Shown: in pieces, positions 22,908-23,052 of the stretch | How the letters are laid out: each line of letters opens with the position of its first letter | Position numbering within the stretch: position 1 is the first letter of the stretch | From: a virus | Lineage: Duplodnaviria; Caudoviricetes | DNA: 64,000 bases | Reading direction: 5' to 3' (one strand) | IMG/VR virus record: IMGVR_UViG_3300035101_000015 | Location: 64,001 to 128,000 of that record | Position numbers and translations under genes: made by a program | The notes under the pieces: generated by a model | What the model was told of the DNA's origin: nothing | The model's input: only the letters and a program-made list of their open reading frames with translations | Database searches by the model: none

Positions 22908-23052
22908 GCAGCAGACCGGAGACTCTGGGTTATCGGTTAGAGCGTTGGGCTCTGCTTCGGCGAGTCCAGAGGTCGCGGGTTCAAGTCCAGCCTCCTTGCC
23001 TCGGCGGGGAGTAGCTCAGTAACAACACCCAGTTTCGTCACTTGTCTGCTGC
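22908..23052 (+). ncRNA. Y RNA enclosing a circularly permuted tRNA-like domain
   Basis: Terminal stem GCAGCAGAC/GTCTGCTGC with GACCG..ACTTGTC Ro helix and GGGTTATC; internal order D-3', anticodon arm (UUCG-capped), T arm, closed acceptor, D-5'. Confidence 0.8.

What the first reader, a model, noticed from the sequence alone, without database searches (positions are those of the whole stretch)
22908..23052. Y RNA whose tRNA domain is permuted at the D-loop and lacks an anticodon
Seen: inside the Ro stem the order is GGTTAGAGC (3' half of D arm), an extended anticodon arm capped by GC-TTCG-GC, AGGTC, T arm GCGGG-TTCAAGT-CCAGC, a closed acceptor hairpin CTCCTTGC/GCGGGGAG, then TAGCTCAGT (5' half of D arm). 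All four tRNA arms are present and the Ro module is attached at the elbow. YrlA is opened at the anticodon arm instead. Inference: a third way of joining tRNA to the Ro module, giving a non-chargeable, anticodon-free full tRNA shape.
Basis: partly seen in the sequence, partly recalled or inferred. Interest (0 to 1): 0.85.

Follow-up and report, generated by a model that had tools for sequence, protein, structure and literature searches.

The report
Y RNA with D-loop-split tRNA domain
Just upstream of a phage's Ro60 (rsr) gene lies a small RNA whose Ro60-docking stem enters a complete tRNA look-alike through the D loop instead of the anticodon arm. The same layout recurs beside rsr in 11 other fetched loci from bacteria and phages, so it is a real and apparently undescribed subclass of tRNA-mimicking Y RNAs.

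Summary
Window 22908-23052 (+) has a terminal bulged helix like the Ro60-binding helix of Y RNAs. That helix encloses, in order: the D-arm 3' half, a long UUCG-capped 'anticodon' hairpin, AGGUC, a T arm, a closed 8-bp acceptor hairpin, and the D-arm 5' half.

- **tRNA test:** After joining the D halves and opening the acceptor loop, ARAGORN calls a tRNA. It calls none in 300 shuffles.
- **YrlA test:** Rfam's YrlA model RF02553 does not match the element even at E<=10.
- **Family:** Covariance models built here found 11 more RNAs with this layout among about 245 rsr loci. They come from Gaiellaceae, Actinomycetota and Anaerolineae MAGs, a complete phage contig and soil metagenomes.
- **Neighbours:** These RNAs usually lie beside a standard YrlA, and RtcB lies downstream in three loci.
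- **Covariation:** It supports the Ro stem, anticodon hairpin, T arm and acceptor hairpin. The split D stem is conserved, with one compensatory variant.

'Non-chargeable' is unproven, because RNase P could open the acceptor loop. The element is also not unique. I class it as a new variant of a known kind; its function (a Ro60 tether or tRNA mimic) is inferred. No expression data could be obtained. Within this scan the layout was noted only on this same stretch, not on other DNA.

The parts
22908..22930 (+). 5' strand of the Ro60-binding module. It comprises the outer helix GCAGCAGAC, a bulged C (22917), GG, GAC and the inner helix CUGGGU.
   Evidence: It pairs with 23027-23052. The outer helix covaries in the family, with 6 of 11 pairs compensatory. 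A weak end-to-end match to the nematode sbRNA (Y RNA homolog) model RF01656 has E=0.0046, below its gathering score.
22931..22934 (+). UAUC linker, part of the conserved GGUUAUC motif, between the Ro helix and G18.
   Evidence: GGUUAUC or GGUUCUC is present in 11 of the 12 members (GGCUUAUC in L231) and in the standard YrlAs of the same loci.
22935..22943 (+). D-arm 3' half: G18 G19 U U A21 plus the stem strand GAGC.
   Evidence: All 12 members have GG, then 1-2 nt, then A, then the stem strand at this place. It pairs with GCUC at 23014-23017. The stem is 97.7% paired in the family and is recovered by RNAalifold.
22944..22969 (+). G26 followed by an extended anticodon-arm hairpin. The hairpin has 10 bp with one bulged U and a UUCG tetraloop, and no 7-nt anticodon loop.
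   Evidence: In the family this stem is 92% paired and 4 of 6 pairs are compensatory. Caps vary: UUCG, GCAA, GAAA, UACG and others.
22970..22974 (+). Variable loop AGGUC (positions 44-48). C48 is the Levitt partner of G15.
   Evidence: It is conserved as AGGUC or AGGC in the family. L231 has U48 together with A15, a tertiary-pair swap.
22975..22991 (+). T arm GCGGG-UUCAAGU-CCAGC, with a G.A mismatch at 51:63.
   Evidence: In the family the T stem is 98% paired, 4 of 5 pairs are compensatory and G53:C61 is invariant.
22992..23011 (+). Closed acceptor hairpin, 8 bp with a CUCG loop.
   Evidence: Present in the MFE fold. In the family 7 of 8 pairs are compensatory. Nine of 12 members have a 7-10 bp hairpin here. 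Three members (L157, L152, L153) have only 4-5 nt.
23012..23020 (+). U8 A9, the D-stem 5' strand GCUC, then A14 G15 U16.
   Evidence: UAGCUCAG is present in 10 of the 12 members.
23021..23052 (+). 3' linker AACAAC and the 3' strand of the Ro60-binding module (ACCCAG ... CACUUGUCUGCUGC).
   Evidence: It pairs with 22908-22930. The ACUUGUC motif recurs in the other Y modules of the locus.
23193..23193 (+). Start (GTG) of rsr, the Ro60 gene, which runs to 24923. It is the presumed protein partner.
   Evidence: Pfam TROVE 6e-44 and vWA_Ro60 6e-55.

Best explanation
The element is a Y RNA, meaning a small non-coding RNA that binds the phage's Ro60/Rsr protein. It belongs to a distinct topological subclass of tRNA-like Y RNAs.

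**Architecture.**
- The 5' and 3' ends pair into a bulged helix of the kind Ro60 recognises: GACCGG.../...ACUUGUC with a bulged C.
- This helix continues, through a UAUC/AACAAC internal loop, into the D loop of a complete tRNA core. The entry point lies between nucleotide 16/17 and G18.
- The tRNA core keeps the nucleotides needed for the L-shape: U8, A9, A14, G15:C48, G18, G19, A21, G26, T54-A58 and G53:C61.
- The acceptor stem is closed by a tetraloop, and the anticodon arm is a long UUCG-capped hairpin.

**What is shown and what is inferred.**
- Shown: the order of parts, their conservation and covariation in 12 rsr loci, and the failure of the standard YrlA model to match.
- Inferred: Rsr binds the terminal helix. 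The tRNA-shaped module acts as in other bacterial Y RNAs, as a tether or decoy that brings Rsr together with a tRNA-recognising partner (RNase P, TruB/Dus-type enzymes, the CCA-adding enzyme, exoribonucleases or RtcB-type repair factors).
- Because Ro60 would sit at the elbow rather than at the anticodon end, the partner would see a different face of the tRNA shape than with YrlA. This may explain why most loci keep both forms side by side.
For: - **Sequence anatomy:**. The cloverleaf is isoenergetic with the MFE.
- **tRNA call:** ARAGORN calls a tRNA after re-permutation in 8 of the 9 members that have an acceptor hairpin, and in 0 of 300 shuffles.
- **Family:** 11 homologs with the same order of parts score 50-108 bits with model R2 (ten of them 64 or more; L231 scores 50.5). 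Standard YrlAs score 63 or less.
- **Covariation:** 84.8% of cells are paired against 69.6% in shuffles and about 41% in slid controls. 27 of 43 pairs have compensatory changes, a value reached by 0 of 500 shuffles.
- **Independent fold:** RNAalifold recovers the Ro stem, the split D stem, the anticodon arm, the T arm and the acceptor hairpin.
- **D stem and Levitt pair:** L231 has GCUA/UAGC in the D stem and an A15:U48 swap.
- **Position:** the RNA is on the same strand as rsr and within 1.6 kb of it in every case.
- **Ro module:** it resembles Y RNA homologs (RF01656, E=0.0046). It is about 90% identical to that of the orthologous Y RNA in the 80%-related locus L006.
- **Context:** RtcB lies downstream in L228, L155 and L235. 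PTH2 and tRNA genes lie in the window.
Against:
- The split D stem is almost invariant, so its pairing rests on conservation plus a single compensatory variant that lies outside the counted alignment.
- The counted alignment was fitted to the model structure, which favours that structure.
- The window copy has a G.A mismatch in the T stem and an MFE competitor fold of equal energy.
- No sigma-70-like promoter or intrinsic terminator was detected around the element.
- The Rfam support for the Ro module is below the gathering threshold.
Confidence: 0.8

Rival explanations
1. It is an ordinary YrlA, opened at the anticodon arm, that the reader mis-parsed. On this view the hairpin before the T arm is the YrlA 'V' stem-loop and the D arm forms locally.
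For: The order hairpin - T arm - closed acceptor stem - UAGCUCAG is shared with YrlA, and the GGUUAUC motif is shared too. Standard YrlAs score up to 63 bits with the D-split model.
Against: No GAGC or GG..A sequence follows GCUCAGU, so no local D hairpin can form; the 3' half lies 70 nt upstream. RF02553 gives no match at E<=10 and separates the two kinds in L153. Nine loci carry both kinds side by side.
Confidence: 0.04
2. It is a circularly permuted tRNA gene whose transcript is processed into a working or chargeable tRNA-like molecule. The Ro stem would be excised and the ends ligated, for example by RtcB, and the acceptor loop would be opened by RNase P and given CCA.
For: D-loop-permuted tRNA genes exist in Cyanidioschyzon merolae (junction 20/21; PMC3978253). 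M. smegmatis YrlA is opened by RNase P and gets CCA. RtcB is linked in three loci. Two members keep a 7-nt anticodon-like loop.
Against: This copy and 9 other members cap the anticodon arm with a tetraloop or short loop, so they cannot decode. Three members have no acceptor stem at all. The terminal helix keeps the Ro-binding features and covaries as a helix, not as a bulge-helix-bulge splice motif. [quoted passage not shown]
Confidence: 0.08
3. It is a decaying by-product of recombination between tandem tRNA genes and a Y RNA, with no function of its own.
For: The locus is full of tRNA-like repeats. The sister locus L006 has a different tRNA topology in the same Ro stem, so cassettes are exchanged. 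The T stem has one mismatch.
Against: The same layout occurs in Actinomycetota, Chloroflexota and phage loci whose Rsr proteins are only about 45% identical, with many compensatory changes and preserved tertiary-contact nucleotides.
Confidence: 0.05
4. It is a cis-acting leader that regulates rsr translation or transcription rather than a free RNA.
For: It lies 141 nt upstream of rsr on the same strand, and no terminator was found between them by the simple scan.
Against: In L220 and L231 the homolog lies 0.5-1.5 kb downstream of rsr. A second complete Y RNA followed by a U-run (23090-23156) separates the element from rsr.
Confidence: 0.03

Closest known systems
YrlA (Y RNA-like A; Rfam RF02553; Chen et al. 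2014, PMC4201824; Wang et al. 2018, 10.1101/312249, PDB 6CU1)
   Same: It is encoded beside rsr on the same strand. It has a terminal Ro60-binding stem with a GNCGAA-like motif and YUAY/GGUUAUC. It has a tRNA-like domain with a conserved T arm, a closed acceptor stem-loop and D-arm sequences, and the tertiary-contact nucleotides are kept, including the G15:C48 / A15:U48 alternation.
   Different: In YrlA the Ro stem continues into the anticodon stem and the D arm is an intact hairpin after the acceptor stem. Here the Ro stem continues into the D loop, the D stem is made of two distant strands, and a separate capped anticodon hairpin is present. RF02553 does not match the element.
Deinococcus radiodurans Yrn1, and the orthologous Y RNA of the related locus L006 (1179-1314)
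   Same: Both are Ro60-binding Y RNAs with a metazoan-like two-stranded Ro helix and a tRNA-like effector module. L006 shares about 90% identical flanks and the same Ro stem with the window element.
   Different: Their tRNA parts are in native order D-AC-T, with the Ro stem at the acceptor position. Rfam's tRNA model reads L006 1218-1289 end to end at 52 bits. They have no closed acceptor hairpin.
Circularly permuted tRNA genes of Cyanidioschyzon merolae, type I (tRNA-Leu(TAA), junction 20/21 in the D loop; PMC3978253)
   Same: The gene order runs from the 3' part to the 5' part, with the break in the D loop and the acceptor end joined by a short intervening sequence.
   Different: Those are precursors of real decoding tRNAs, processed at bulge-helix-bulge motifs by the eukaryotic splicing endonuclease. 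The junction is 20/21, not 16/17-18. They have no Ro module and no tetraloop-capped anticodon arm.
tRNA bodies with a Ro-binding hairpin in place of the anticodon loop ('inside-out YrlA'). Examples are window 25051-25436 and L006 3250-3382, and earlier notes of this scan.
   Same: The locus, the Ro-module sequence (ACUUGUC / GACCGAAG...GGGUUAUC) and the tRNA core are the same.
   Different: In those RNAs the free ends are at the acceptor stem and the Ro helix is closed by a loop at the anticodon position. In effect they are circular permutations of YrlA, not of the D-split form.

Membership tests
Y RNA (Ro60/Rsr-associated ncRNA) | Encoded next to a Ro60/TROVE gene, same strand (bacterial and phage Y RNAs) | tested here: met
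   rsr lies at 23193-24923 (+), 141 nt downstream. All 11 homologs lie within 1.6 kb of rsr on the same strand.
Y RNA (Ro60/Rsr-associated ncRNA) | Terminal helix formed by the 5' and 3' ends, carrying the conserved bulged Ro-binding motif | tested here: met
   The helix 22908-22930 / 23027-23052 has a bulged C and GACCGG / ACUUGUC. It covaries. The match to the Y-homolog model RF01656 has E=0.0046, below gathering.
Y RNA (Ro60/Rsr-associated ncRNA) | Physical binding to Ro60/Rsr | not testable with these tools
   It needs pull-down or EMSA; no RNA data were obtainable.
YrlA (RF02553) | Matches the curated covariance model at or above 69 bits | tested here: not met
   There is no RF02553 match on 22700-23250 at E<=10 and none on the element in the whole-record search. 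In L153 the model hits the standard YrlA but not the D-split RNA. Even that standard YrlA reaches only 37 bits, so the threshold is strict.
YrlA (RF02553) | Order V - T arm - closed acceptor stem-loop - intact D stem-loop, with the anticodon stem formed by the strands that lead to the Ro module | tested here: not met
   The T arm and closed acceptor stem are present. The D arm is not a hairpin, because its 3' strand lies 5' of the anticodon hairpin.
YrlA (RF02553) | tRNA-type tertiary-contact nucleotides (G18, G19, T54-A58, R15:Y48, U8:A14) | tested here: met
   All are present in the window copy. They are conserved in the family, with one A15:U48 swap.
YrlA (RF02553) | Substrate of TruB/DusA (pseudouridine 55, dihydrouridine) | not testable with these tools
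   It needs modification mapping.
tRNA (RF00005) | Contiguous cloverleaf with free acceptor ends and a 7-nt anticodon loop | tested here: not met
   There is no RF00005 or ARAGORN hit on the native sequence. The sequence is called a tRNA only after in-silico re-permutation, and then with an abnormal anticodon loop.

The most novel reading that the evidence does not exclude
Ro60 loci of phages and bacteria encode a set of RNAs that display the same tRNA core on Ro60 in at least three or four orientations: joined at the anticodon stem, at the acceptor stem, at the D-loop elbow, or with the Ro helix as a capped anticodon arm. Each orientation would recruit or block a different tRNA-handling enzyme. 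In phages the set would serve to take over or shield tRNA repair and turnover during infection. The D-loop-joined form would place the Ro60 ring at the tRNA elbow, the site used by RNase P and other elbow readers. It might also be opened by RNase P into a two-piece, CCA-tailed, anticodon-less tRNA held on Ro60.
Probability: 0.15. Interest if true: 0.85.

Novelty: new variant of a known kind. Interest (0 to 1): 0.66.

Why it matters
- **An open problem:** tRNA-like Y RNAs are known, but the partner that reads their tRNA shape is still unidentified.
- **A natural experiment:** A second conserved way of mounting the same tRNA core on Ro60, often encoded right next to the standard form, would differ in which face of the tRNA shape is exposed. 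The elbow may be occupied, while the anticodon end is free but blunt. Comparing the proteins each form pulls down could identify the effector.
- **RNA architecture:** It shows that a tRNA fold appears to tolerate a whole helix inserted in the variable part of its D loop.
- **Annotation:** This RNA class is invisible to the tRNA finders and the Rfam models run here, so it would be missed by annotation that relies on them.
- **Phage biology:** In phages it adds to the evidence that Ro60/Y RNA modules belong to a tRNA-centred toolkit, here alongside PTH2, odd tRNAs and a MoxR-like/VWA-like pair.

Tried and rejected
- **Exact junction search:** GGTTATCGGTTAGAGC in IMG/VR gave 5 hits, all chance matches in unrelated sequence.
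- **Single-protein search:** A single-protein search for Rsr relatives in IMG/VR found nothing. The alignment-based search was needed.
- **blastn against GenBank phages:** The element gave only generic tRNA-fragment hits.
- **Genome sampling:** A sample of 151 genomes of the class of the Gaiellaceae MAG, searched with model R2, found only the starting genome. Few candidates per genome were scored, so this says little.
- **Isolated actinophages:** Five phages (A3Wally, BearBQ, Farewell, prophiGD43A-5, Tonenili) carry only standard YrlA-type RNAs near their Ro genes.
- **MAFFT alignments:** Alignments A3 and A4 misplaced the variable hairpins, so pair counts were made on the model-based alignment A5 instead.
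- **Promoter and terminator scan:** Nothing was found.
- **Literature:** The supplement of Chen et al. 2014 and the 2020 Annual Review were not held. I therefore cannot exclude that a D-split example sits unremarked in their supplementary lists.
- **MFE competitor fold:** This fold (GUUA/UAAC extension plus GUUGGGCU/AGUCCAGC) was considered and rejected, because the family covaries for separate anticodon and T hairpins.

Full report
**Setting.** The window is bases 64001-128000 of a 145.8-kb linear IMG/VR virus record that is about 78% complete. A Ro60/Rsr gene lies at 23193-24923 (+), with TROVE at 6e-44 and vWA_Ro60 at 6e-55. An AAA_5/MoxR-like gene and a DUF2201 metallopeptidase/VWA-like gene lie upstream. 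A PTH2-like gene and two tRNA genes lie downstream on the other strand. The element under study, 22908-23052, is the first of two small RNA-like units between the upstream gene and rsr.

**Observation.**
- The ends pair as GCAGCAGAC/GUCUGCUGC.
- A bulged C follows, then short helices and CUGGGU/ACCCAG.
- Inside, in order, come UAUC, GGUUA-GAGC, G, and a 10-bp hairpin with one bulge and a UUCG cap.
- Then come AGGUC, GCGGG-UUCAAGU-CCAGC, and CUCCUUGC-CUCG-GCGGGGAG.
- Last come UA-GCUC-AGU and AACAAC.

In tRNA numbering this gives U8, A9, G10-C13, A14, G15 and U16 on the 3' side. It gives G18, G19, U20, U20a, A21, G22-C25, G26, 27-43, 44-48, 49-65 and 66-72 on the 5' side. The contacts that hold a tRNA in its L shape are all available: U8:A14, G15:C48, G18:U55, G19:C56, T54:A58, G26:A44, and the 9, 45 and 46 triples. 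The two D halves, when joined, are letter for letter the D arm of the neighbouring tRNA-like gene at 25058-25075.

The proposed cloverleaf has -66.4 kcal/mol against -66.7 for the MFE, which uses a competitor pairing between the anticodon 5' strand and the T 3' strand. ARAGORN finds nothing in the native sequence. It calls a tRNA once the D halves are joined and the acceptor loop is opened. It does so in 0 of 300 dinucleotide shuffles, and only for rotations that begin within a few bases of the acceptor 5' end.

**Is it just YrlA?** The literature defines YrlA as Ro motif - (V) - T - closed acceptor stem-loop - intact D stem-loop, with the anticodon stem made by the strands leading to the Ro module (PMC4201824; 10.1101/312249). 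Here no D hairpin can form after the acceptor stem. Rfam holds a YrlA model (RF02553, gathering score 69 bits). It gives no match on the element at E<=10, either in the regional scan or in the whole-record search. In locus L153 it hits the standard YrlA at 2730-2794 (37 bits, T-AS-D) but not the D-split RNA 50 nt further on. The best Rfam match to the element is an end-to-end but sub-threshold match of the terminal helix to a nematode stem-bulge RNA model, a Y RNA homolog (E=0.0046).

**A family, not a singleton.**
- The exact junction 16-mer finds only chance matches in IMG/VR.
- I collected about 245 rsr loci with 3-kb flanks from IMG/VR, JGI metagenomes and GTDB species genomes, using an Rsr alignment.
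- I searched them with a covariance model of the element (R1) and then with a model of eight members (R2).
- Eleven further RNAs have the same order of parts: L130, L124, L155, L157, L152 and L153 (soil and other metagenomes), L085 (a complete 134.7-kb phage contig with terminal repeats), L228 (Gaiellaceae MAG), L235 (Actinomycetota MAG), and L220 and L231 (Anaerolineae MAGs).
- Ten of the eleven score 64-108 bits with R2, and L231 scores 50.5. Standard YrlAs score 63 or less.
- In nine loci a standard YrlA lies directly beside the D-split RNA. In L220 and L231 the D-split RNA lies downstream of rsr, so it is not an rsr leader.
- RtcB follows rsr in L228, L155 and L235.
- Five isolated actinophages had only standard YrlA-type RNAs.

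**Covariation.** The analysis used the model-based alignment of 11 members (A5). Overall, 84.8% of cells form standard pairs, against 69.6% after shuffling and about 41% when partners are slid. 27 of 43 pairs show compensatory changes, a value reached by 0 of 500 shuffles.

| Helix | Cells paired | Pairs with compensatory change |
|---|---|---|
| T stem | 98% | 4 of 5 |
| Anticodon hairpin | 92% | 4 of 6 |
| Acceptor hairpin | 87% | 7 of 8 |
| Outer Ro helix | 83.5% | 6 of 11 |
| Split D stem | 97.7% | 0 of 4 (nearly invariant; one G-U variant) |

An invariant stem neither proves nor disproves pairing. L231, outside A5, has GCUA/UAGC there and also swaps the Levitt pair to A15:U48. RNAalifold, predicting on its own, returns the outer Ro helix, the split D stem, and the anticodon, T and acceptor helices. 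One caveat applies: A5 was fitted to the model's structure.

After re-permutation, 8 of the 9 members that have an acceptor hairpin are called tRNAs by ARAGORN. Three members have no acceptor stem at all. Anticodon arms are capped by UUCG, GNRA, UACG and similar short loops in ten members. L220 and L231 keep a 5-bp stem and a 7-nt loop.

**Evolution.** The closest relative of the locus is L006, whose Rsr is 80% identical.
- It has the same terminator hairpin, the same conserved upstream block and an almost identical Ro stem.
- Its tRNA domain, however, is in native order and joined through the acceptor stem. Rfam's tRNA model reads it end to end.
- The two orthologous Y RNAs therefore carry circularly permuted versions of a tRNA body in the same Ro frame, but their stems differ in sequence. 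This points to cassette replacement rather than a recent rearrangement.
- The window's junctions are most like those of the Anaerolineae member L220: GGGUUAUCGGUUAGAGC and UAGCUCAGUAA.

**Mechanism.** The anatomy, the conservation and the link to rsr are shown. The following steps are inferred from established Y RNA biology (Ro60 binds the terminal bulged helix; the second module tethers an effector; PMC4201824, 10.1101/312249, PMC12135203):
- The terminal helix binds the phage Rsr, and the tRNA-shaped module engages a tRNA-recognising partner.
- Entry through the variable part of the D loop would put Ro60 near the elbow. It would leave a blunt anticodon arm and a closed acceptor/T helix exposed, a different presentation from YrlA.
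- From my own knowledge, not checked here: circularly permuted tRNAs with breaks in the D loop were reported to fold natively in vitro (Pan, Gutell and Uhlenbeck, 1991). The region between positions 16 and 18 is also length-variable and solvent-exposed in tRNAs.
- The acceptor hairpin here is 7+1 bp, and M. smegmatis YrlA with a 7-bp stem is cut by RNase P and receives CCA. Opening of the loop therefore cannot be excluded.

**Comparison and novelty.** The element works like a tRNA-like Y RNA but fails two defining features of YrlA, the model match and the intact D hairpin. It differs from Yrn1, which is drawn in native D-AC-T order, and from the L006 RNA, which is joined through the acceptor stem. 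The only D-loop permutation I found in print is a eukaryotic pre-tRNA gene of C. merolae, which has a different junction and processing and no Ro module (PMC3978253). Searches of the held literature found no description of a D-loop-joined Y RNA. The supplement of Chen et al. 2014 and the 2020 review were not available. I therefore rate it a new variant of a known kind. I put about 0.8 on the structural reading and somewhat less on the claim that it is truly undescribed.

Noticed in passing
window 25051-25170, 25177-25304, 25310-25436: Three tandem tRNA-shaped genes have normal acceptor ends. In each, the anticodon loop is replaced by a 47-58-nt Ro-binding hairpin in reversed strand order (ACUUGUC - loop - GACCGAAG...GGGUUAUC), making them in effect circular permutations of YrlA. 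Rfam's tRNA model reads the third end to end with a 58-nt insert (49 bits), and that one ends in an encoded CCA. L006 3250-3382 is an ortholog. Earlier notes of this scan report the same design in other viruses.
   Followed up: partly
window 23090-23151 and 24978-25045: Two minimal Y RNAs consist of a Ro helix plus a short loop, with no tRNA domain. The first is followed by a U-run. Both strands of the Ro helix (GACCGGAUG...GGGUUAUC / ACUUGUC) resemble, as I recall them from memory (no comparison was run), animal Y RNAs more than Salmonella YrlA does.
   Followed up: no
window 23158-23195; L006 about 1425-1470: A small hairpin with the permuted Ro-helix motif (CACUUGCUCC - loop - GGAGCCGAA) runs into the rsr ribosome-binding site. 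It is conserved in the 80%-related locus L006. It is a candidate site for autoregulation of rsr by Rsr.
   Followed up: partly
window 25440-25520: A further Ro-module hairpin (CAGCACUUGCUC ... GAGCCGAAGUUGAAGGGUUAUC) has no tRNA body and lies just before a strong terminator-like hairpin at about 25525-25570. L006 has a counterpart at about 3385-3480.
   Followed up: no
L006 1179-1314: The orthologous first Y RNA of the sister locus has the same Ro stem, but it carries a native-order tRNA with a 6-nt anticodon loop, joined through its acceptor stem (Rfam tRNA 52 bits at 1218-1289). Related phages thus swap tRNA topologies within one Y RNA frame.
   Followed up: partly
window 26018-26093 and 26096-26171 (minus strand): Two adjacent tRNA genes are both called tRNA-Phe(AAA) by ARAGORN. 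At least the second (26097-26171) has an enlarged, 9-nt anticodon loop in the Rfam alignment. They lie next to a PTH2-like gene (25587-25943, minus strand).
   Followed up: no
L153 1147-2669; L228 251-1591 and 4942-5280; L155; L130: In several bacterial or metagenomic loci rsr and its Y RNAs are embedded in large arrays of 5-20 tRNA genes. RtcB follows rsr in L228, L155 and L235.
   Followed up: partly
L157 2154-2275, L152 2203-2318, L153 2842-2962: Three D-split members lack the acceptor hairpin entirely, with only 4-5 nt between the T arm and U8. For this subclass the acceptor stem therefore seems dispensable, while the D/T elbow and the capped anticodon arm are kept.
   Followed up: partly
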